From an uncultured Nitrososphaerota archaeon (GTDB taxonomy: Archaea; Korarchaeota; Korarchaeia; Korarchaeales; Korarchaeaceae): a stretch of 64,000 bases of DNA. The translations under genes and the position numbers were made by a program. Numbering within the stretch: position 1 is the first letter of the stretch; each line of letters opens with the position of its first letter. Under the pieces are notes generated by a model. It was not told the origin of the DNA and ran no database searches. It saw only the letters and a list, made by a program, of their open reading frames with translations. Location: NCBI GenBank assembly GCA_964618805.1, contig CAZUBM010000001.1, positions 192,010 through 256,009 on the forward strand, given 5' to 3'. Positions 23,391 to 33,824 of the stretch are shown piece by piece.

Positions 23391-24283
23391 TTGTCAGCAT
23401 CAAAAAGGACAATTGCTCTCACCGAGGCTCTTATCACTACGTTTCTATGGTCTTCTTCTTACATTTTGATAAAACGTGGGCTTGTGACCATAAGTCCCCT
23501 TCTATTTGCGGGCACTAGGTACTTTCTAGCCTTTCTTTGTCTCTTAGCTGTTTTTACTTTGACTAAGAGAGCCCTTCCCTCAATAGAAGGAAAGCAATGG
23601 GCTTATTTGGCATGTTTGGGGCTTTCAGGATATGCAGGAATGCCAGCATTCCAGTTCTTAGGATTACTTTATCTTGGGGCAACCGATTCTGCATTTATCT
23701 CGAACTTCAATCCCCTATTTGTTGCTCTCATTTCATGGATCGTGAAAAAGAGGTCTCATGGAAAAAGGCAGTGGACTGGGTTTTTTCTTTCATTAATTGG
23801 AGCTACTATCTATTTTTTCCTGAAATACAGCTAAGATCAAGGGATAAAGCCCTAGGTATAGCTCTAACAGCCATTTCTGGCCTCTTTTGGGGGATCTACA
23901 TGGTATTAGCTGAAAAAAGAACATCAGAAGAGTTAGATGTCCTGTCAAGAACGACAATCTCAATGGGTTTAGGAAGCGTTCCTCTTCTGCTCCTTTCCTT
24001 TTTAGTTGAGGGAACAAGGCTTGTCAAGTCATCTTGGATTTACATCTTGTGGTTAGGGATAGTGAATACAGCAATAGCCTTTACATTATGGATTCGTTCT
24101 CTCGAAGAACTTAGGGCTTTTGAGACATCAATCCTGCAGAATACTATGTTAATTCAAATAGCCCTGCTTTCTATGCTATTCTTGGACGAAGCCCTATCTT
24201 TTAACAAGATAATAGGCATGATCCTCGTGCTTACGGGAGCTATCTTGGCGCAAAAAACCAAAAAGGGCTCAAGGCAAATCTAA
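23391..24283 (+). pseudogene. EamA/DMT transporter split by a -1 frameshift at 23813-23819
   Basis: ORFs 23391..23834 and 23597..24283 join into a 10-TM EamA protein if one T is added to TATTTTTTCC. Could be a pseudogene, recoding or a sequencing error. Confidence 0.75.
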
Positions 24284-24308: not shown

Positions 24309-25001
24309 TTACTCGCGCTCCATCAAAGGAACTATGCGCTCAAGTACATAGTTGATGAAAGTCTCCTCATCTATCTTACTGAAAATAGTCACAACACAGT
24401 TTCTAGTTAGCCCAACAACCAATCCGTACTTCTTATCCTCAAAGACAACATACCAGATTTTTCCATGTTTGAGGTATTCGTGATATAATGTAGTATCTTG
24501 AAGAGCATTTCCATAGAGGGCCAGCTTATTTATGTTTGGCAAATCGACCTGATCGAAATATATAACTTTAGTAGCCTCAGGATTGGATTCATGTAGCTCT
24601 TTTAGAGTCTCATGAGTTATCTTAGCCTCTACTACGGCTCCTGGTCCTGGAATTATTATCTCACCAAGCTTTGAGGCTATGTTATTCGCTATTCTCCACT
24701 TTTCAACAACAAAAAGCAATGTTATTCCTTCTCTCTCGGTAAAAAAGAAGCCTGACTCCCTCGTGAATAGGTTGTATCTTAGCTCTCCTCTATAAGTCGT
24801 TGGGATGACCTTGTCCTCAGAGTAAATCCCCCACAAGAGGTCTTTTCTGAAGTCAAGCTCTCTTACTTCACTCATTAACTTAATCTCCTGTCCTCCATAT
24901 TCTTCAACTCTTTCCATTTTCCAATCTTTCAATTTTTCAGCAATCAGTTCTAATGGAACCCTTTCCTCCAACTTGAAAAGCTTTCCTGCTAAAACCATCA
25001 A
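24309..25001 (-). CDS. Hypothetical alpha/beta protein, divergent from the smc-like gene
   Basis: 230-aa ORF with normal codon usage and no recognised motif. Confidence 0.75.
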   Translation of the reverse strand: MMVLAGKLFKLEERVPLELIAEKLKDWKMERVEEYGGQEIKLMSEVRELDFRKDLLWGIYSEDKVIPTTYRGELRYNLFTRESGFFFTEREGITLLFVVEKWRIANNIASKLGEIIIPGPGAVVEAKITHETLKELHESNPEATKVIYFDQVDLPNINKLALYGNALQDTTLYHEYLKHGKIWYVVFEDKKYGLVVGLTRNCVVTIFSKIDEETFINYVLERIVPLMERE

Positions 25002-25305: not shown

Positions 25306-27120
25306 ATGCCATCTACTTACATCAAGGAGGTTGTGCTAGAGGACTTCATGTCATACGAATACTCAAGAGTACCGCTTAAACCAGGTCTTAACATAATAAC
25401 TGGCCCTAATGGAGCTGGAAAGTCCTCAATAATCCTTGGAATAGCTGTCGCAATGGGTCAGACATACACTGAGAGGTCCAGAAGGCTCAGAGATCTAATT
25501 AGAAGGGGAAAAAATGTTGCTCGTGTTACCGTAGTGCTTGATAATAGGCCAGTTGATGGAAAGAGGCCCATTCCCTTTTCGAGAAAGGATGAGGTCAGAA
25601 TATCTCGATATTTGAGATCTGACGGAACATATTGGTTTGAAATGGACTACAAACCGATAGATAAGGCGGAAGTTGTCTACAGACTTTCTCGCCTTGGAAT
25701 AAATCCTAACAACATGCTGATTATAATGCATCAAGGGATGGTAAGCGATTTCAGTCGTCTTTCTCCACAAGATAGGTTGAAGTTGGTAGAGGAGGCGGCT
25801 GGATTACACGAATATAGAGAAAGGATTCTAGATGCTAGAAAAAAGTTAGAGGAGATCGTTAGTGAAGAAGAGTCCCTAAAGGAGCTGCTATCAAAGAGCG
25901 AAAAGACGATGGGATACTGGGAAGAGCAATACAGTAGATTGCTTGAGAAAAGGGAGCTCAGAGAAAAACTTAGAAAGCTGAGACTTGAGCTGGCATGGTC
26001 AAAGTGGAACTTACAACTGAAGAATGTTGAGAAGATAAGGACCAGGATAGCTCAAAGAGAGTTAGAAGCCAATAAACTGCAAAAAAGGCTGAATGAAGCA
26101 GAAAAAACGGCTAAAGAAGCTAGAGAAGAGCTAAAGAAATCATGGAAGTCCTTAGAGGAGGCCTTCCTTGATCTCTCCATCGAGGAGAGAGCGCTAGGTA
26201 GAATGGAAGCATCCTCAGGAGAATTGATAAAAGAAGCGATGAAAAGCGTGGAGACTGCAAGAGCTAAAGTAGAGGCCCTAAAATCATCGTTCTTCAAGAA
26301 ACAGGAGGAATTAATAGAAGCATCCGTCGAGAGAGCTTTAAGTGAGTTCAGGCTGAAGATGATTAGAAGTGAGATATCAAAACTTAAGAGAAAATTATCA
26401 GAAGCCGAGCAAAAACTCTTAGATATCGAAAATGAAGCTAAGAATCTAGGACCTAAAGTAGAGACAGAAAGATCTCCTGATGAAATAATACAAGAGATAA
26501 GGTTTGCCTCGGCTAGACTCTCTACACTAACCGATGTCTCAGATGACACGGAGCAAATGTATCTAAACTATTCAAAAATGCTTGAAGAACTCAGAGAAAA
26601 AGTAAGAATCCTTGCGGAGAACAAAAGAGCAGCAATCAAGGAACTAGAGGAGAGAAGTAGACTCTGGAGAAGGAGACTTAAGTCCTTAGTAAGTGAGATA
26701 AATAAGACTTTTAACGACATACTTGAGAGGCTTGACGCCAAGGGAGAGGTCAGACTAACGGATCTGGAGGATGTTGAGAAGGCTGGCCTCAGAATATTCG
26801 TAGGTTATAGAGGATCCCCCCTTGCTGAACTAGATCCTTTCACACAAAGCGGAGGAGAAAGAAGTACTGCAATTATAGCCTTTCTCCTCTCCCTTCAAAA
26901 ACAAATGAAATCTCCAATAAGAGTAGTGGACGAATTTGATGTTCACATGGATCCAGCCAATAGGGAAAGAATATTCGAGCAAATATTTGAGATTCTAAAG
27001 GAAGCAGGAGGACAGAGCATTTTTGTTACTCCTAGAAGACTGGTGGGATTAAAGAAGGGCACACATATCATCGTAGTCCAAAATGTTGAAGGAGCATCGG
27101 AGATTCGGGAAGTTAGTTAA
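25306..27120 (+). CDS. Short SMC-family ATPase, Smc5/6-like head
   Basis: Walker A GPNGAGKS, Q-loop MHQG, long coiled coil, signature QSGGERS, and Walker B/D-loop SPIRVVDEFDVHMD. Confidence 0.9.
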   Translation: MPSTYIKEVVLEDFMSYEYSRVPLKPGLNIITGPNGAGKSSIILGIAVAMGQTYTERSRRLRDLIRRGKNVARVTVVLDNRPVDGKRPIPFSRKDEVRISRYLRSDGTYWFEMDYKPIDKAEVVYRLSRLGINPNNMLIIMHQGMVSDFSRLSPQDRLKLVEEAAGLHEYRERILDARKKLEEIVSEEESLKELLSKSEKTMGYWEEQYSRLLEKRELREKLRKLRLELAWSKWNLQLKNVEKIRTRIAQRELEANKLQKRLNEAEKTAKEAREELKKSWKSLEEAFLDLSIEERALGRMEASSGELIKEAMKSVETARAKVEALKSSFFKKQEELIEASVERALSEFRLKMIRSEISKLKRKLSEAEQKLLDIENEAKNLGPKVETERSPDEIIQEIRFASARLSTLTDVSDDTEQMYLNYSKMLEELREKVRILAENKRAAIKELEERSRLWRRRLKSLVSEINKTFNDILERLDAKGEVRLTDLEDVEKAGLRIFVGYRGSPLAELDPFTQSGGERSTAIIAFLLSLQKQMKSPIRVVDEFDVHMDPANRERIFEQIFEILKEAGGQSIFVTPRRLVGLKKGTHIIVVQNVEGASEIREVS

Positions 27121-27286
27121 ATTTCTTTAACAAATTTAACTTAAATTGCAATATCTCCTTTACAAGGAACAGTGCCTAAGCAATAGGAATAAGATTATTT
27201 GAAGAACAAGAAGCCTTTCCTCATGGAAATCTTCCCTCAAACTTTTATTTTTTCAAGAATCACTTCACCGGCTCAGGTGGCTATTC

Positions 27287-27655
27287 ATGCCGACGCTTAG
27301 TTCTAATATTAACTCCCTTTTAGAACAGTTTGTAAAACGCACGCTCGGAATGGAGGCAGTAGCTCTGGTTACGATGGATGGCCTGATAATGGCCTCCTCA
27401 CTACCATCTGGTGCAGGAGAAGAGAGAGTAGCAGCGATGTCTTCTGCTCTGCTTAGTATTGCTTCAAGGATAACAGAAGAATTAGAAAGGGGAGAATTCA
27501 AAAGAGCTTTGGTAGCCGGTTCTGAAGGGTTCATCGTTTTAGTTCCCTCTAGTTCTGGTTTTCTTCTAACCGCGGTATGTTCTAAGGACGCAAGGCTCGG
27601 CATGGTACTTTTTGAAATAAATAAGCTAGCTACTTTCTTATCAAGGGAATCATGA
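27287..27655 (+). CDS. Roadblock/LC7 (MglB-like) protein
   Basis: AVALVTMDGLIMASSL..EERVAAMSSALLSIASRITEEL.RG...RLGMV. Confidence 0.88.
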   Translation: MPTLSSNINSLLEQFVKRTLGMEAVALVTMDGLIMASSLPSGAGEERVAAMSSALLSIASRITEELERGEFKRALVAGSEGFIVLVPSSSGFLLTAVCSKDARLGMVLFEINKLATFLSRES

Positions 27656-27852
27656 CCTACTTCTGACTAGGATGGAACTTAGAGCTCTTTTTTCCCTAAG
27701 GAAGGATATTACTTTATGGATTGTGCTGCCTCAGGAAATTTCCACTAATTAGTCAAACTAACTCTTATTCATGTTCTAGAGATTGTAACATCCTTTATTA
27801 ACGATAGTCAATTCACTGGTGTTGATCATCACTTACAAGTAAGGTGCCTCTA

Positions 27853-28659
27853 ATGAGGTCTAGACTAAAGAAGAGAAGGGAGATCTTGCTAAGGATCTTG
27901 GACTTATGCGAGAAGGCTATAAAGGAGGAGGCGGATCCCTTTCAAGTCGATGTTGTCCAGTTATTTGGGAAATTGAGGGAATTGCTTCCAGAATTGGAGA
28001 CAGAAGAGGAGTTTTACTTAGATCTAGAAGCAGTTTTAGGCCTTACTTCAGTAATTTTGAAGCAGGAAGAATGGATTCGATATAGATCATCCCTTATGTT
28101 CCTAGACCCTCTTTTGGTCCTTCTAAAGATAGAGAAACTAGGTGATAAAGACCTTGCCGATGTGCTGAGGAGGAGTTGGAGGCCGATTGTAGAGGCCAGA
28201 GGGGTTTCTCCACTATTCCTGGAAAAGGCAGTGGAATATTGGAGGACCCTTCCTGCTCTTGAGGAAAGAAGATTAGAATTAGGAGAAATGGAGGAACGGA
28301 CAGGAACTCTAACTCTTTCTGATCTAGCAACTTTAGGATTTGCTTCCGAAGACGAATTCTTATCTTTCCTGGAATCTGAGGAAGAGAGACTAAAGGAAGA
28401 AGCCAAGAAGAGGGGAGGAGAAGTTCCTTATTGGGAGTTTATTGGAGCTGAAACCTTTGAAGAGACTATAAAAAGAGCCTATCTTGTTAGTTTCCTTTGT
28501 AGTTATGGGAGGGCAACAATAAGGAGAGATCCTCTCTCTGGTGAGATGTGGCTCGTCCCCTTGAAGAAACCACTAGGTACTAAGGTTTCCCTCGCAATAC
28601 CTATAGATGAGGAGAGGTGGAAAAGGAGGAATGTCGGAGGAGGCAGAGCTAAGAGCTAA
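27853..28659 (+). CDS. Kleisin (ScpA/Nse4-like) subunit
   Basis: N-terminal DPFQVDV resembles ScpA DPWDIDI. C-terminal winged helix VPYWEFI...KRAYLVSFLCSYGRATIRRDPLSGEMWL. ATG 27853 is 6 nt after GGTG. Confidence 0.72.
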   Translation: MRSRLKKRREILLRILDLCEKAIKEEADPFQVDVVQLFGKLRELLPELETEEEFYLDLEAVLGLTSVILKQEEWIRYRSSLMFLDPLLVLLKIEKLGDKDLADVLRRSWRPIVEARGVSPLFLEKAVEYWRTLPALEERRLELGEMEERTGTLTLSDLATLGFASEDEFLSFLESEEERLKEEAKKRGGEVPYWEFIGAETFEETIKRAYLVSFLCSYGRATIRRDPLSGEMWLVPLKKPLGTKVSLAIPIDEERWKRRNVGGGRAKS

Positions 28660-29191
28660 GTTGAAGAGAGCGGCTCACATGCTCTTCTTCAGAACTCACT
28701 CTAAGCCAGGAGTCAAGGGATGGGAACTCAAAAAGGGCCTCGGAAAGAACTACCTTCAGGTAATTGACCTACTTAACAAGGAGTTGGAAAGGATAGGTCT
28801 TAGGATAGAAACGATCTCGCAGGAAGGAGGGAAGCCTAAGAACGAGAAAGATTTCCTTTACAGCAGCTTTTTCATAACCTTTAAGGACCCTCCAGACTGG
28901 CCTGAGGTACGAGGTTCTGGATGGAGGATAGATGAAATGGCAGCACTAACAGCATGCCTCTCTCTAATCCTCTCAAGAGGAGGAAAAGTTAAGAGAAAGG
29001 AGATAGATGAGCTACTTGAGAAGAAAATACCTTCTTGGAGGGCTAGAGCGATAACTGAGAGATTCTTTAGACTGGGATACCTTTCTCTTGGTGAAGAGGA
29101 CGGAGTTATTGTTGGTTGGAGGAGCAGAGTGGAGATAGATCTACAAAAACTCATGAATCTGCTTTTAGGTAGGGAAACAGAGGGTAATTAG
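28631..29191 (+). CDS. Tandem winged-helix KITE protein (Nse3/MAGE- or Nse1-like)
   Basis: HMLFFRTHSKPGVK..ELKK...LNKELERIGLRIETI and LSLILSRGG...ITERFFRLGYL...VGWRSRVEID. Overlaps the kleisin stop, with AGGAGG before the ATG. Confidence 0.68.
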   Translation: MSEEAELRAKLKRAAHMLFFRTHSKPGVKGWELKKGLGKNYLQVIDLLNKELERIGLRIETISQEGGKPKNEKDFLYSSFFITFKDPPDWPEVRGSGWRIDEMAALTACLSLILSRGGKVKRKEIDELLEKKIPSWRARAITERFFRLGYLSLGEEDGVIVGWRSRVEIDLQKLMNLLLGRETEGN

Positions 29192-29252: not shown

Positions 29253-29669
29253 GTGAGTTCTGGGGTGCTAAAAACCGTAGGATCTTTTTTGGATAAAATG
29301 GGTGTTAAGTATGTCCTAGATGAGGAAAAAAGTCTAATATTGAGTAGCTGGTCCATAGAGGACAAGCCATTTACCGTGGGCATTTGGTCAGCAGGACCTT
29401 GGCTGATTATCAGGGGCTATATACTACCGAAATCTATGGTTCCCAGAGAAAAAGAGCTTCAACTTTACAAAAAACTGTTGAACACTCATTATAATTTAGC
29501 GGAAGTTAGATACGACATAGATGAGGAGGGAAATATAGGAACAACCCAATCAATCCCTTTAGAAGGGTTAAACATGAATAACTTCCAATCCGAGTTCAAT
29601 GCTGTTCTTTACGCTATTAAGTTCTTTCTAACAGACATAGCAGGGAAGTTGGGTATAGAAATCAAGTAG
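29253..29669 (+). CDS. YbjN/T3SS-chaperone-like fold protein
   Basis: FLDKMGVKY...LYKKLLNTHYNLAEVRYDIDEEGNI pattern. Confidence 0.55.
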   Translation: MSSGVLKTVGSFLDKMGVKYVLDEEKSLILSSWSIEDKPFTVGIWSAGPWLIIRGYILPKSMVPREKELQLYKKLLNTHYNLAEVRYDIDEEGNIGTTQSIPLEGLNMNNFQSEFNAVLYAIKFFLTDIAGKLGIEIK

Positions 29670-30354: not shown

Positions 30355-30942
30355 ATGAGAGGCTATAGGTTCTTCGTGACGGACATGGATGGAACCTTAG
30401 TTACGCTTGACATAGATTGGGACGAGGTGAGAGAGAAGGTAAGGGAAATACTAAGGACAGATCATCCCCTCAAACCACTTGGACCGAGCATTTTAGAGGC
30501 TACAGAAGGAAATGAAGTGCTTAGAAGAAAAGCATTCGAGCTTGTTGAGAACGAGGAAGTTAGAGCAGCACTTGATGCCTCTCCAGACCCAGAACTTAAG
30601 GCAATGCTTTCTAGACTTAAGAGAAGAGGAGTAAGGATGGCGCTAATTACATTTCAGTCCCTAAAGCCAGCCACGATAACGCTAAAGAGACTTGAGGTCC
30701 TTAACTTCTTTGAGTTCCTCATAACAAGGGAATACTCCCTAAACAGAAAGAAGCAGCTTTCAATAGCAATAAATCGTTTAAGAGCAGATCCTAGAAGTAC
30801 CGTCTTCGCTGGAGATTCTCCTTGGGATGTCTTAGCTGGTAAGGAGCTTGGTTGTTTCACTGTGGTGGTAAGAAGTAATATCGAAGGTGCTGATCTCTAC
30901 GTTAAAAGGTTTGTGGAGCTTGAGAAGGTCTTTTATGATTGA
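30355..30942 (+). CDS. HAD-superfamily hydrolase
   Basis: DMDGTLV and GDSPWD. Confidence 0.9.
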   Translation: MRGYRFFVTDMDGTLVTLDIDWDEVREKVREILRTDHPLKPLGPSILEATEGNEVLRRKAFELVENEEVRAALDASPDPELKAMLSRLKRRGVRMALITFQSLKPATITLKRLEVLNFFEFLITREYSLNRKKQLSIAINRLRADPRSTVFAGDSPWDVLAGKELGCFTVVVRSNIEGADLYVKRFVELEKVFYD

Positions 30943-33824
30943 TCTAATCTCCACTTCTCTCTAAATCTACTCAAAGCTAACTCCTTTCTCTCTTCATAGA
31001 TCAGCTCGTAAAATCTCGAGGAAAGCCTTGGTTCCTCGGCTAGGATTTTGTCTATTTTCTTCTTAGGAAGACCGCTTGCTATCGCTATGGCCGCTACTTT
31101 ACCGTATTTAGATATTAGAGAAACAGATTTTTTCAAATCTCTCCAAATTTTCTTGCTTTCTTTACTAAGTGCCCCTTCTCTAGCTCTAGTTAGAACAAGC
31201 CCGACCTCAAACTCATCTGCATCAGCCATGCCAATGAGCCTAGAACCGCATATTGGGCACCTTAGCACATCATCTAACCTGTGTAGCTCAATCTCTTCAA
31301 TGTACCCCTTGCACTCAAGGCACGCAAATGTTCTGGACTGGCTCAGCAGATCTACTCTCATCTTGGCTACCTTCAAAGTCCTCTTTCTTTCTAAAGGAAC
31401 TCTTTCTAACCTGCTTGTCATGAGGTCTATTCCTATCTTTGCAATAGGAGTCGGCTTTTCGAGTTCTCCTAAGCAGATTACTTCGATTTTTCCTTCACCT
31501 ATCATCTTTAACAATCTCCCTGCTCCCCTAAGATCTATGTCTCTCTCAACAGCTTCTCTAAAGGCCTCTTTGTAGACAGGAGTGTCTCTTAAGGCATCTA
31601 TCAGATTATCAACAAATTCTCTGCTTAAGGTAGCTTCCTTCTCCAACACCCCCATCTTCCTGGCGGCTTGTGTTATCCTAAATCTAAAGAAGCCGCTTTT
31701 CTCCATGGTCCTTCTGACAACCGGGGCAATTTCAGGTCCACTCCCCTCTTTAAGTATCGTTGAAGCTTCCTCAGGAGAAACCTGACCCTTAAGGTAGATC
31801 CTATAAGGGTCCTCACTTACAGCTACTGGCTTTGCAAATCTCTCAGTTAAAGCCTCTGATAGGAATCTAGAAAGTGCTCTGTTTATGAGGGTTCCTCCAA
31901 GGACATGGACTGTAACCAAATCTTTGTAAGCCTCAACAACGATTCTTTTATCGTTTGGAACGGGATAGCCTAACTTGCACTGCTCGAAAATAAGTTCTAT
32001 ACCTCTAGCTATGAAATCTGGCGTAGACCCATATCTCTCAGATAGTTCCTTTGCTATTTCTAAAAGGCCGTCTCCCTTCTCAAACTTCTCCTCCACAAAT
32101 CTCCTAACTAATCCTACTTCTTGGGCTGCCTCATAAGGAACAGGAATCTCCTCTCCCACCCAACTTGGAATGGCTCCTAAAGGATCCTTTGCGCTTTTCA
32201 CATATACGCGATCTTCGAAGACCTGAACAACTGTCCAAACCTCTCCGGCCATTACAAACTTAATCCCAGGTTTCCCATACTCAGCTACAAATGGCTCATC
32301 TAAGACCCCAACAGGCTCTTCTGTATCTTGGTCTATTACCAAATATTGCTTTACATCTGGTATCATTGAGAGATTCTCGAAATAATATGTGTAAATTCTC
32401 TCGGGAGGGCCTACTCTGAAGAACTCAGCTTCTTTAAAAGAGAGCCCAAGGAAGGGACTTCTCATGTGAGCCATAAACCTCAAAAGCTCCATAAACTCAT
32501 CAAATCTCAAATTTCTGTAGTTATATGCTCCTTTAACTATGGCATATGCCTCTTCTACAGCCCATCTCTTCTTTGTAAGGAGAAAGCCAGCTATCTCATG
32601 CATTAAAGCATCAAGAGGCTTCTCAGGAATCTTTACAGGTTCAAGTTCGTCTGACATAGCCCTTCTAGCCACAACAAGCGCTTCAATAGCATCGTCAGGA
32701 TTTTGAACTATAACTGTCCCCTTTGAAACAGCCCCTATCCTGTGTCCGCTCCTTCCAACCCTTTGGACTAAACGAGTAGCCTGTCTAGGGGAGTTGTATT
32801 GAATTACCATATCTATGGATCCAATATCTATGCCCAGTTCTAGGCTTGAGGTTGCTATTAAAGCCTTTAGTGTCCCTGATTTAAGGCCTCTCTCTGCTCT
32901 AAGTCTGCTTTCAAGGGCTAAGGATCCATGATGCACATTTATAGGTATGGAAACATCCCAAAGCTTGAATCTACTTCCTAAGACCTCTGTCATAGGTCTT
33001 GTGTTTGTGAATATTAAGCAAGACTTTGATGATTCAACAATCTCCTTCATGCAACGGAGTCTGGCTGCAACGTCCGGGTAGGTGTATAATCTTGATGCAA
33101 GTTTAACATCATCTGGGGTTGGCTTTGGATATGCTATCTTTACCTTCATTAGCTTTACAATGGGTACGTATATCATCTCACAAGAGTCTGAAGATCCGAT
33201 GAGAAAGCGTGCAACTTTCTCTGGACTACCAACCGTTGCTGATAGACCTATTATCTGGAAATCACCTTTTTTCAACCATTTTAACCTTTCAAGGGCCAAA
33301 GCAAGCTGAGCTCCCCTCTTGCTTTCGGCCAGCTCATGAATCTCATCTATGATAACGTGCCTTACGGTTAGTAAGTTCTCCCTCAGTTTTCTACCAATAA
33401 GCATTATCTGCAAAGTTTCAGGTGTCGTTACCATGATGTCTGGAGGCATATCTGCCTGAGTCCTCCTCTCTCTTATGGATGTGTCGCCATGTCTCACTCC
33501 AATCGAGAGATCTAGTTTACTGCACCACCACTGGAGTCTATCCATCAAGTCTCGGTTCAGAGCTCTCAGTGGAGTTATGTACAATACTTTGACGCCTCTC
33601 ACCCTTTTTTCCTCAAGAAGCTTGCTTAATATAGGAAGAAAAGCGGCTTCAGTCTTACCTGTTCCGGTTGCTGCTATAAGAAGAACGTTTTTCCCCTCCA
33701 GTATGGGCTTTATAGCTTTAGCTTGCGGATCTGTTGGTTCCATAAACCCTTTCTCTTCGACGAGTCTCCTGACTGGCTCTGCAAGCATTTCAAAAGCATT
33801 TGATTCGATAGAAGAGGATCTCAT
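30933..33824 (-). CDS. lhr: Lhr-family SF2 helicase with C-terminal zinc finger
   Basis: ATGTGKT, TPLRALNRD, DEIH, SAT, HHGSL, QRVGRSGH and CLEC/CPIC. Confidence 0.92.
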   Translation of the reverse strand: MRSSSIESNAFEMLAEPVRRLVEEKGFMEPTDPQAKAIKPILEGKNVLLIAATGTGKTEAAFLPILSKLLEEKRVRGVKVLYITPLRALNRDLMDRLQWWCSKLDLSIGVRHGDTSIRERRTQADMPPDIMVTTPETLQIMLIGRKLRENLLTVRHVIIDEIHELAESKRGAQLALALERLKWLKKGDFQIIGLSATVGSPEKVARFLIGSSDSCEMIYVPIVKLMKVKIAYPKPTPDDVKLASRLYTYPDVAARLRCMKEIVESSKSCLIFTNTRPMTEVLGSRFKLWDVSIPINVHHGSLALESRLRAERGLKSGTLKALIATSSLELGIDIGSIDMVIQYNSPRQATRLVQRVGRSGHRIGAVSKGTVIVQNPDDAIEALVVARRAMSDELEPVKIPEKPLDALMHEIAGFLLTKKRWAVEEAYAIVKGAYNYRNLRFDEFMELLRFMAHMRSPFLGLSFKEAEFFRVGPPERIYTYYFENLSMIPDVKQYLVIDQDTEEPVGVLDEPFVAEYGKPGIKFVMAGEVWTVVQVFEDRVYVKSAKDPLGAIPSWVGEEIPVPYEAAQEVGLVRRFVEEKFEKGDGLLEIAKELSERYGSTPDFIARGIELIFEQCKLGYPVPNDKRIVVEAYKDLVTVHVLGGTLINRALSRFLSEALTERFAKPVAVSEDPYRIYLKGQVSPEEASTILKEGSGPEIAPVVRRTMEKSGFFRFRITQAARKMGVLEKEATLSREFVDNLIDALRDTPVYKEAFREAVERDIDLRGAGRLLKMIGEGKIEVICLGELEKPTPIAKIGIDLMTSRLERVPLERKRTLKVAKMRVDLLSQSRTFACLECKGYIEEIELHRLDDVLRCPICGSRLIGMADADEFEVGLVLTRAREGALSKESKKIWRDLKKSVSLISKYGKVAAIAIASGLPKKKIDKILAEEPRLSSRFYELIYEERKELALSRFREKWRLDQS

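What the first reader, a model, noticed from the sequence alone, without database searches (positions are those of the whole stretch)
25306..29191. Archaeal Smc5/6-like complex: SMC ATPase + kleisin + MAGE/Nse3-like KITE in one cluster
Seen: three same-strand genes. The ATPase head motifs (LNIITGPNGAGKSSI; QSGGERSTAIIAFLLSLQ..SPIRVVDEFDVHMDPAN) resemble eukaryotic Smc5/Smc6 more than canonical prokaryotic Smc or Rad50. ORF 27853 has both kleisin ends. The overlapping ORF 28631 has two winged helices whose end (LSLILSRGG...ITERFFRLGYL...VGWRSRVEIDLQKLM) recalls the MAGE/Nse3 pattern (LSLIF..G...F..Q.YL...WGPRA..E.....V) rather than ScpB. Established: eukaryotic Smc5/6 uses the kleisin Nse4 and KITEs Nse1/Nse3, and Smc5/6-related proteins are known in TACK/Asgard archaea (e.g. 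Sulfolobus coalescin ClsN). Inference: this is a minimal three-gene archaeal Smc5/6-type holocomplex for chromosome organisation or anti-plasmid/virus defence. Both partner genes would normally be annotated as hypothetical, and I know of no biochemical study of such a complex.
Basis: partly seen in the sequence, partly recalled or inferred. Interest (0 to 1): 0.8.

Follow-up and report, generated by a model that had tools for sequence, protein, structure and literature searches.

The report
Hingeless archaeal Smc5/6-like operon
This korarchaeal locus encodes the already published archaeal relative of the eukaryotic Smc5/6 DNA-maintenance complex (a short, hinge-less SMC ATPase, an Nse4-like kleisin and an Nse1/Nse3-like kite), here split by an extra Roadblock gene and flanked by an unknown gene that travels with the system.

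Summary
The window has a 604-aa SMC ATPase (25306-27120), a 268-aa kleisin (27853-28659) and an overlapping 194-aa tandem winged-helix kite (28607-29191). All three score best against eukaryotic Smc5/Smc6, Nse4/EID3 and Nse3/Nse1/MAGE, ahead of Smc, ScpA and ScpB.

It is a genus-specific insertion.

The class is published (Yoshinaga & Inagaki 2021; van Hooff et al. preprint), so this is a new member of a known kind. ClsN is not an example of it; ClsN is a zinc-hook ASRP.

This scan has reported the same operon type in at least ten other genomes.

Three features are not mentioned in the text I could read:
- The SMC has no hinge, no zinc hook and short arms.
- An unknown 230-aa gene (24309-25001, minus strand) lies divergently upstream. 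It co-occurs with the kite gene in 111 of 119 kite-positive genomes of a 251-genome sample.
- An Lhr-like helicase is a frequent downstream neighbour.

This genome shows no hinge-bearing SMC, ScpA or ScpB, so this may be its only SMC-kleisin complex. A chromosomal DNA-maintenance role is more likely than defence. No binding or function was tested.

The parts
24309..25001 (-). Unknown conserved 230-aa gene ('UP'), transcribed divergently from the SMC gene. Candidate fourth partner of the system.
   Evidence: No Pfam, NCBIfam, PADLOC or PDB sequence match. The family has 254 representatives, none longer than 289 aa among the 150 listed. It lies divergently upstream of the SMC gene in 26 of 80 kite-anchored loci. 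It co-occurs with the kite gene in a 251-genome sample: 111 both, 8 and 8 one only, 124 neither.
25306..27120 (+). SMC5/6-related SMC ATPase, 604 aa, hinge-less with short arms.
   Evidence: SMC_N E 1.5e-29, no SMC_hinge hit at E<=1. Best PDB matches are Smc5/Smc6. No cysteine in the protein. The centre, residues 240-340, is the least conserved part.
27287..27655 (+). Roadblock/LC7 gene inserted between SMC and kleisin; genus-specific.
   Evidence: PF03259 E 5.5e-13. Present at this position only in the window and in 2 of the 3 other same-genus loci, and in 2 of 80 kite-anchored loci, which are those same two genomes. It is one of 5 Robl_LC7 genes in the genome.
27853..28659 (+). Nse4-like kleisin, 268 aa (alternative GTG start at 27844).
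   Evidence: Profile against PDB: EID3/NSMCE4B 6.5e-6, ScpA-C 0.046, Nse4 0.42. Foldseek: Nse4 7qcd_F 2.7e-4. C-terminal winged helix 168-237 against ScpA C-WHD: Z 9.5, rmsd 2.6, 70 residues aligned.
28607..29191 (+). Nse1/Nse3 (MAGE)-like kite, 194 aa, two winged-helix domains, no RING.
   Evidence: AF2 model pLDDT 85. The Foldseek list is headed by Nse3, MAGE-G1, NSE1, Nse1 and MAGEA4. Profile against PDB: Nse3 E 0.02. One homologue is named 'MAGE domain-containing protein' by NCBI.
30933..33824 (-). Lhr-like helicase, 963 aa; a recurrent convergent downstream neighbour of the operon.
   Evidence: ORF; the name 'Lhr-like' is from my recall and an earlier scan note, not from a family search here. 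A homologue (phmmer E<=1e-20) lies on the opposite strand downstream of the kite gene in 23 of 80 loci, of which 62 have at least 3 kb of downstream sequence. In the window three genus-specific genes lie in between.

Best explanation
This is a korarchaeal member of the archaeal 'SMC5/6-related' SMC-kleisin-kite complex. Shown: the three proteins are an SMC-family ATPase with all catalytic motifs, a kleisin with a C-terminal winged helix, and a tandem winged-helix kite. Each is closest to the eukaryotic Smc5/6, Nse4 and Nse1/Nse3 proteins, and the three genes are tightly linked across many archaeal lineages. Inferred: two SMC copies engage through their ATP-bound heads. One kleisin bridges the neck of one SMC (N-terminal helices) and the cap of the other (C-terminal winged helix). 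Two kite copies sit on the kleisin's middle part. DNA is clamped on the engaged heads inside the kleisin/kite compartment, as in solved Smc5/6 and MukBEF clamps. Each arm is only about 125-150 residues, roughly 20 nm by my estimate, and ends in a short loop with no hinge and no zinc hook. The complex therefore probably acts as an ATP-gated DNA clamp or tether for chromosome maintenance and repair, not as a long-armed loop extruder. In this genome it appears to be the only SMC-kleisin complex. The 230-aa upstream gene probably works with it. The Roadblock gene is a recent genus-level insertion.
For: Identity of the parts is supported (details under parts).

Linkage: in 80 kite-anchored loci from Korarchaeia, Bathyarchaeia, Nitrososphaeria, Methanomethylicia and Hadarchaeota, kleisin and kite are within 20 nt or overlap in 80 of 80. 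An SMC gene is upstream in 77 of 80, within 20 nt in 70 of those 77.

Hinge-less: no PF06470 hit at E<=1. None of the 120 listed homologues (552-699 aa, median 637) carries PF06470 in the precomputed Pfam column. The same model finds hinges in other SMCs of 31 of 41 relatives. The protein has no cysteine. The centre is the least conserved part.

Sole complex: the own genome (93.7% complete) shows no PF06470, no PF02616, and no PF04079 above cut-off. A separate 688-aa Rad50-like gene lies next to a metallophosphoesterase.

Housekeeping character: exactly one kite match in 119 of 251 evenly drawn genomes (47%) of another phylum. Neighbours in the window are ordinary genes. No defence-family hit for the partners.

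Unknown gene. Lhr neighbour.

Literature: the SMC5/6-related aSMC clade includes a Korarchaeota homologue (PMC8665677, sections 8, 10, 14, 18 and passages). Operons encoding 'all three subunits' are described in bioRxiv 10.1101/2024.01.07.573240 (section 8 and passages).
Against: No assembly, DNA binding or expression was tested. No tree with eukaryotic sequences could be built here, so the Smc5/6 affinity rests on score rankings and on the two papers. The N-terminal head alone does not discriminate: Smc2 60.6, Smc3 59.9 and Smc5 59.8 bits. The kleisin N-terminal part (residues 1-84) matches only generic three-helix bundles, and the kleisin model as a whole is poor (pLDDT 61). In this genus the SMC-kleisin junction is open (148-714 nt gaps), so co-translation is not assured. 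The unknown gene persists in 9 genomes of a sister genus that lack the operon. Related genomes are not independent, so the co-occurrence overstates the link. The genome is incomplete, so a hinge-bearing SMC could be unassembled; one same-genus genome (G003, 75% complete) has a hinge SMC and no operon.
Confidence: 0.8

Rival explanations
1. It is an SMC-based defence system against plasmids or viruses, in the manner of Wadjet, Lamassu or the antiviral role of human Smc5/6, with the unknown 230-aa gene as a possible effector.
For: The SMC matches PADLOC models mad3 (2.5e-36) and LmuB (3.3e-31, nearly full length). Its short-armed, hinge-less build resembles LmuB (my recall). Human Smc5/6 restricts episomal DNA (PMC10586767, passages). 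The unknown gene has invariant acidic and basic residues.
Against: Kleisin, kite and the unknown gene have no PADLOC hit. No JetD- or LmuA-like gene recurs among the genes I screened for in 80 loci (SMC, kleisin, kite, the unknown gene, Roadblock, the 138-aa ORF and Lhr); I did not list all other flanking genes. The kite gene is present as one match per genome in 47% of a 251-genome sample, against about 5-10% for Wadjet and about 10% for Lamassu (PMC10586767). The window's flanking genes are ordinary. Canonical SMC models score higher than the defence models (TIGR02169, 8e-64).
Confidence: 0.1
2. It is a shortened, diverged form of the ordinary prokaryotic Smc-ScpAB condensin.
For: TIGR02169 (SMC_prok_A) is the best NCBIfam hit for the heads (8e-64). 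The kleisin C-terminal winged helix superposes well on the ScpA C-WHD (Z 9.5). ScpB appears among the kite's fold matches (2.3e-3).
Against: TIGR02169 reaches 216 bits against a 729-bit cut-off and lacks the hinge part. PF02616, PF04079 and PF06470 do not match these proteins. Smc5/6, EID3/Nse4 and Nse3/Nse1 outrank Smc, ScpA and ScpB in every ranking. Many relatives carry a separate hinge-bearing SMC as well: 51 of 119 kite-positive genomes.
Confidence: 0.05
3. It is a Rad50-like or ASRP/ClsN-like ATPase whose neighbours are unrelated.
For: Its length (604 aa) and lack of a hinge resemble ASRPs. There are weak NCBIfam hits to Rad50 (1.8e-20) and ASRP (4.8e-15).
Against: It has no zinc hook; the protein has no cysteine. 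ASRP scores 55 bits against a 300-bit cut-off. Rad50 is far down the profile ranking at 53 bits. A separate Rad50-like/Mre11-like pair exists in the genome. Linkage with kleisin and kite is near-universal.
Confidence: 0.02

Closest known systems
Archaeal 'SMC5/6-related' SMC + Nse4-related kleisin + Nse1/3-like kite operons (Yoshinaga & Inagaki 2021, PMC8665677; van Hooff et al., bioRxiv 10.1101/2024.01.07.573240)
   Same: The same three gene types in the same order and the same lineages (TACK, some Asgard and others). A Korarchaeota SMC homologue was already in the 2021 tree.
   Different: In the text I could read, the papers do not mention the short length or missing hinge, the 230-aa neighbour, Lhr or a Roadblock insertion. 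This locus has the Roadblock gene inside the operon.
Eukaryotic Smc5/6 with Nse4 and Nse1/Nse3
   Same: These are the best sequence and fold matches for all three proteins, with the same kleisin-plus-kite (not hawk) architecture.
   Different: There is one SMC gene, implying a homodimer, not Smc5+Smc6. There is no hinge and the arms are roughly a third as long. There is one kite gene and no RING (194 aa, one cysteine). No Nse2 or Nse5/6 homologue was seen or searched for.
Prokaryotic Smc-ScpAB
   Same: SMC homodimer, kleisin with a C-terminal winged helix on the head, a kite dimer, and operon organisation.
   Different: The hinge, ScpA and ScpB Pfam models do not match. Scores are lower than for Smc5/6-type proteins. 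The arms are much shorter.
Wadjet (JetABCD) and Lamassu (LmuABC)
   Same: SMC-like ATPase with kleisin-like and, in Wadjet, kite partners. JetB is a fold match of the kite (1e-3). The LmuB model matches the SMC.
   Different: No JetD or LmuA effector. Much higher prevalence, with one kite match per genome. No PADLOC hit for the partners.
ASRP family including coalescin ClsN (PMC9389158)
   Same: Archaeal, short, hinge-less SMC-superfamily ATPases.
   Different: ASRPs carry a zinc hook and have no consistent neighbours. This protein has no cysteine and has fixed kleisin and kite partners. ASRP model: 55 of 300 bits.

Membership tests
Archaeal SMC5/6-related SMC-kleisin-kite complex | SMC head closer to Smc5/Smc6 than to canonical Smc, Smc1-4 or Rad50 | tested here: met
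   Family profile against PDB: the ten best sequences are all Smc6 or Smc5 (183-195 bits), then Pyrococcus Smc 161, Smc2 142, Rad50 53. C-terminal head alone: Smc5 89 against Smc 48 bits. The N-terminal head alone is a tie. This is a score ranking, not a tree.
Archaeal SMC5/6-related SMC-kleisin-kite complex | Nse4-related kleisin encoded next to the SMC | tested here: met
   EID3/NSMCE4B 6.5e-6 is the best PDB profile hit. Nse4 7qcd_F is the best Foldseek hit. The kleisin is adjacent to SMC in relatives; in the window it is separated from SMC only by the Roadblock gene.
Archaeal SMC5/6-related SMC-kleisin-kite complex | Nse1/3-like (not ScpB- or MukE-like) kite encoded next to the kleisin | tested here: met
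   Foldseek ranks Nse3, MAGE-G1, NSE1, Nse1 and MAGEA4 above JetB, ScpB and MukE. Profile hit to Nse3, E 0.02. The kite gene overlaps the kleisin gene.
Eukaryotic Smc5/6 holocomplex | Smc5-Smc6 heterodimer joined by hinge domains | tested here: not met
   One SMC gene in the operon. No PF06470 hit. The profile's listed aligned stretches cover Smc6 residues 77-501 and 674-1056 and leave out the part between.
Eukaryotic Smc5/6 holocomplex | Nse1 with a RING domain plus separate Nse3; Nse2 SUMO ligase; Nse5/6 | tested here: not met
   There is a single 194-aa kite with one cysteine and no further domain. Nse2 and Nse5/6 were not searched for in the genome.
Smc-ScpAB | SMC hinge (PF06470), ScpA (PF02616) and ScpB (PF04079) signatures | tested here: not met
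   None of the three models matches these proteins at E<=1. None is found above cut-off anywhere in the genome.
ASRP / coalescin ClsN | Zinc-hook motif at the coiled-coil apex; ASRP model score | tested here: not met
   No cysteine in the protein. NF045487 scores 55 bits against a 300-bit cut-off.
Rad50 | Zinc hook and an Mre11 partner | tested here: not met
   No cysteine. The neighbours are kleisin and kite. A separate Rad50-like plus metallophosphoesterase pair lies about 30 kb upstream in the same contig, outside the window.
Wadjet / Lamassu defence systems | Effector subunit (JetD or LmuA) and PADLOC models for the partner subunits | tested here: not met
   No PADLOC hit for kleisin, kite, Roadblock or the unknown gene at E<=0.01. 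No such gene was seen among the genes I screened for in 80 loci.
Any SMC-kleisin complex | Physical binding of kleisin N-terminus to the SMC neck and C-terminus to the SMC cap, and of kite to kleisin | not tested

The most novel reading that the evidence does not exclude
The widespread archaeal Smc5/6-type machine is really a four-part module: hinge-less SMC, Nse4-like kleisin, Nse1/3-like kite, and a previously unnoticed ~230-aa protein of no known family. It works without any hinge or hook linking the arms. If so, it is a natural experiment showing that DNA clamping by heads, kleisin and kite is enough for the ancestral Smc5/6 function. The fourth protein would be a loader or regulator playing the part that Nse5/6 plays in eukaryotes.
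Probability: 0.3. Interest if true: 0.7.

Novelty: new member of a known kind. Interest (0 to 1): 0.4.

Why it matters
Smc5/6 is the least understood eukaryotic SMC complex, and its archaeal relatives are known only from phylogenies. A minimal homodimeric version of about 1860 residues in a 2:1:2 assembly, from thermophiles, would be an attractive object for structural and single-molecule work. It would also let one test directly whether a hinge is needed for DNA clamping, entrapment or translocation. The co-occurring unknown protein and the recurrent Lhr helicase neighbour give concrete leads to its cellular role in repair or replication stress. For this window specifically the gain is modest: it is one more member, with a genus-specific Roadblock insertion.

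Tried and rejected
- Complex prediction on two copies of the SMC arm (residues 175-450, alignment A3) scored 0.35 against a mark of 0.42. That is no verdict, so whether the arms or apices pair stays open.
- The look-up of sequencing runs listed four DNA holders and no RNA holder, so nothing can be said on expression.
- The protein-atlas search on the unknown gene and on a homologue found no model for either. The only named leads were CENP-L (0.83-0.84) and RdgC (0.78-0.79), below the 0.9 level. I recall that these two share a fold; this is untested.
- For the unknown gene, the profile search against PDB gave 0 hits at E<=10 and Pfam on 18 members gave only scattered single hits.
- VIA-align on the kleisin model gave only generic three-helix bundles for residues 1-84, so the 'N-terminal kleisin end' is unproven.
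- NCBIfam gave nothing for the partners.
- A 'phylum' search around the window's own genome reached only 29 genomes, so I re-centred on a Bathyarchaeia genome.
- Phrase searches containing 'SMC5 6' found nothing because of how the slash is indexed. That blank is not evidence.
- Searches found no biochemical or structural paper on the archaeal complex and none on its missing hinge.
- No tree with eukaryotic SMCs was built, because no tool supplied those sequences.
- My first count of loci with the unknown gene (27) included the window by a string-comparison slip. The correct number is 26 of 80.

Full report
**What is there.** One search shows a same-strand run of genes:
- an SMC-like ORF at 25306-27120 (604 aa);
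- a 122-aa ORF at 27287-27655;
- a 268/271-aa ORF at 27853/27844-28659;
- an overlapping 194-aa ORF at 28607-29191;
- a 138-aa ORF at 29253-29669.

A 230-aa ORF (24309-25001) is transcribed divergently upstream. A 963-aa helicase ORF (30933-33824) lies convergently downstream.

**The SMC.**
- Pfam gives SMC_N (1.5e-29) and no SMC_hinge at E<=1.
- NCBIfam's best model is archaeal SMC (TIGR02169, 8e-64), but at 216 bits against a 729-bit cut-off, matching the two head halves only. Rad50 and ASRP models are far below their cut-offs.
- Against PDB sequences the single protein hits yeast Smc5 best (2.7e-31), ahead of Pyrococcus Smc (6e-27).
- With heads only, the N-terminal half is a tie: Smc2 60.6, Smc3 59.9, Smc5 59.8 bits.
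- The C-terminal half clearly prefers Smc5: human 89, yeast 64, Pyrococcus Smc 48 bits.
- A profile of 58 family members (A3) puts Smc6 and Smc5 in all ten top places (183-195 bits), then Pyrococcus Smc 161, Smc2 142, Smc3 120 and Rad50 53.
- All catalytic residues are invariant in the family.

**The SMC has no hinge.** The 120 best homologues are 552-699 aa long (median 637), and none has PF06470 in the precomputed Pfam column. Heads take about residues 1-170 and 455-604. The remaining ~285 residues are charged and helical, with breaks only at G203, around 298-305 and at 382-391. The centre is the least conserved part. There is no cysteine, so there is no zinc hook. I read this as an antiparallel coiled-coil hairpin of roughly 20 nm with a plain loop at the tip. 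That reading is an inference from sequence; no model of the SMC was made.

**The kite.** It has 28 homologues, all unnamed or 'hypothetical' except one that NCBI calls 'MAGE domain-containing protein'.
- The profile (A1) hits Xenopus Nse3 (7dg2_C, E 0.02) and human NSE1 (0.56) in PDB.
- The AF2 model (pLDDT 85, two winged helices) gives this Foldseek order: Nse3 5.6e-6, MAGE-G1 1.7e-5, NSE1 9.5e-5, Nse1 2.9e-4, MAGEA4 7.7e-4, then JetB 1e-3, ScpB 2.3e-3, MukE 4.9e-3.

**The kleisin.** It has 14 homologues (alignment A2).
- The profile hits the C-terminal winged helix of human EID3/NSMCE4B (6.5e-6), then Pyrococcus ScpA-C (0.046) and yeast Nse4 (0.42).
- The AF2 model is poor overall (pLDDT 61) but good for residues 165-240.
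- Foldseek's best hit is Nse4 7qcd_F (2.7e-4), then the ScpA C-WHD (TM 0.80 on the target).
- VIA-align gives the ScpA C-WHD at Z 9.5 and Scc1-C at 7.5-7.6. Residues 1-84 match only generic three-helix bundles.
- So the C-terminal kleisin end is shown. The N-terminal end is compatible but unproven.

**Linkage.**
- In 18 loci from 40 relatives, SMC, kleisin and kite are adjacent in 14. Two more have the kite 2.4 kb downstream without a kleisin hit, and two show only the SMC in the stretch fetched.
- A scan of one genome per species found at least 550 stretches encoding a kite relative. The best 80 loci span Korarchaeia (Methanodesulfokora), Bathyarchaeia, Nitrososphaeria, Methanomethylicia, Culexarchaeum and Hadarchaeota. 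At least 12 of them are the same contigs as in the first set.
- Kleisin sits directly before kite in 80 of 80 loci, always within 20 nt or overlapping.
- An SMC gene precedes the kleisin in 77 of 80, within 20 nt in 70 of those 77. Exceptions: L093 and L120 have no SMC in the locus, L130 is at a contig edge, and L102 has a 3.2-kb insertion.
- The window's genus is among the exceptions to tight spacing. The Roadblock gene occupies the junction in the window and in two of the three other same-genus loci; the third has a 148-nt gap.
- Roadblock appears at this position nowhere else in the 80 loci, and it is one of five such genes in the genome. I take it as a recent insertion, not a subunit.

**Other SMC-type genes in the genome.** The genome (2.18 Mb, 93.7% complete) shows no hinge domain, no ScpA, and no ScpB above cut-off. 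It does have a 688-aa Rad50-like gene beside a metallophosphoesterase.
- Most genomes of the same family carry a 758-833-aa hinge-bearing SMC as well.
- The window's genus mostly does not: none was found in G000, G001, G002 or G004. G003, 75% complete, has a hinge SMC but no operon.
- In 251 evenly drawn genomes of the phylum of a Bathyarchaeia carrier, 51 have both a hinge SMC and the kite, 68 have the kite only, 49 the hinge only and 83 neither. Having only the Smc5/6-type system is therefore common.

**The upstream 230-aa gene.** It has no Pfam, NCBIfam, PADLOC or PDB relative. The family is compact: 254 representatives, with none of the 150 listed longer than 289 aa. Members from different classes are 43-52% identical.
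- It lies divergently upstream of the SMC gene in 11 of the 18 relatives' loci.
- It does so in 26 of the 80 kite-anchored loci: 21 within about 300 nt and 5 at 0.65-2.3 kb.
- In the 251-genome sample it is present in 119 genomes, and the kite in 119. They overlap in 111, with 8 kite only, 8 unknown-gene only and 124 neither (phi 0.87). In 39 of the 111 it is within 6 kb of the kite gene, and in 38 of these it is divergent and upstream.
- Against a strict dependence: nine genomes of a sister genus keep a more diverged copy without the operon, and four more distant relatives have a diverged kite without it.
- Related genomes are not independent, and I could not correct for phylogeny. I rate a functional link as likely and a physical subunit role as possible.

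**Lhr.** In my 80 loci, a homologue of the window's 963-aa helicase lies convergently downstream of the kite in 23. Of the 80 loci, 62 have at least 3 kb of downstream sequence. In the window three small genes lie in between. I did not run a family search on the helicase; the name is recalled.

**What it does.** The system has one kite match per genome in about half of a broad sample. It sits among ordinary genes. Its partners match no defence family. No effector-type gene recurred among the genes I screened for. Wadjet and Lamassu are quoted at about 5-10% of genomes (PMC10586767, passages). I therefore favour a chromosomal DNA-maintenance or repair role over defence. The mechanism given under Best explanation is inferred from solved relatives. 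Nothing about binding, ATPase activity or DNA was tested.

**Comparison with the literature.**
- Yoshinaga and Inagaki (PMC8665677; sections 10, 14, 18 and passages read) defined 'SMC5/6-related aSMC' homologues: 80 sequences, mostly TACK, from a length window of 500-1500 aa. A Korarchaeota sequence branches with the Smc5+6 clan.
- Van Hooff et al. [quoted passage not shown]
- Word searches within these two texts found no mention of a missing hinge, short length, Roadblock or a further conserved neighbour. Their supplements were closed and may contain such details.
- I found no biochemical or structural study of the archaeal complex.

**Earlier notes of this scan**. At least ten other windows from other genomes were read the same way: hinge-less archaeal Smc5/6-like operon, class already published. 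Two of them note the unknown ~228-aa neighbour. I had reached the hinge and neighbour observations from my own calls (39, 47, 60, 63, 64) before that look-up. I tested the Lhr lead afterwards.

**Verdict.** It is a new member of a known kind. What remains of interest belongs to the whole family, not to this window: the hinge-less build, the co-occurring unknown protein, and the absence of any experimental work.

Noticed in passing
window 27287-27655 (+): A Roadblock/LC7 gene sits inside the operon between SMC and kleisin. It is found at this position only in this genus (the window and 2 of 3 other same-genus loci). It is one of five Robl_LC7 genes in the genome. There is no sign that it belongs to the complex.
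   Followed up: yes
window 24309-25001 (-): A 230-aa protein of no known family lies divergently upstream of the SMC gene in many lineages. It co-occurs with the kite gene (111 both, 8, 8, 124 neither in 251 genomes). Language-model leads to CENP-L and RdgC are below the reliable level.
   Followed up: partly
window 30933-33824 (-): A 963-aa Lhr-like helicase is a recurrent convergent downstream neighbour of the operon (23 of 80 loci). Here it is separated from the operon by three small genes.
   Followed up: partly
window 29253-29669 (+): A 138-aa CesT_Tir_1/YbjN-like protein (PF22550, E 1.3e-6) lies directly after the kite gene. It was found only in the same-genus loci.
   Followed up: partly
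window 23391-24283 (+): Two overlapping ORFs in different frames (147 aa and 228 aa) look by eye like the two halves of one membrane transporter (my reading of the translations; no family search run). This could be a frameshift or an assembly error.
   Followed up: no
G000:C1 about 182.7-186.7 kb (L011), outside the window: A 688-aa Rad50-like ATPase (SMC_N, SbcC_Walker_B) overlaps a 386-aa metallophosphoesterase, presumably a Rad50-Mre11 pair. The Rad50 is unusually short.
   Followed up: partly
G027:C41:75427-79843 and G028:C25 (relatives of the same class): These genomes carry two kite genes, each near an SMC-like gene (one of 628 aa, one an open frame of 932 aa). No Pfam hinge was found in either genome. 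This may be a second, longer hinge-less Smc5/6-type operon.
   Followed up: no
relatives of the same family: The hinge-bearing SMCs of this korarchaeal family are themselves short, 758-833 aa against about 1180 aa in most other archaea sampled.
   Followed up: no
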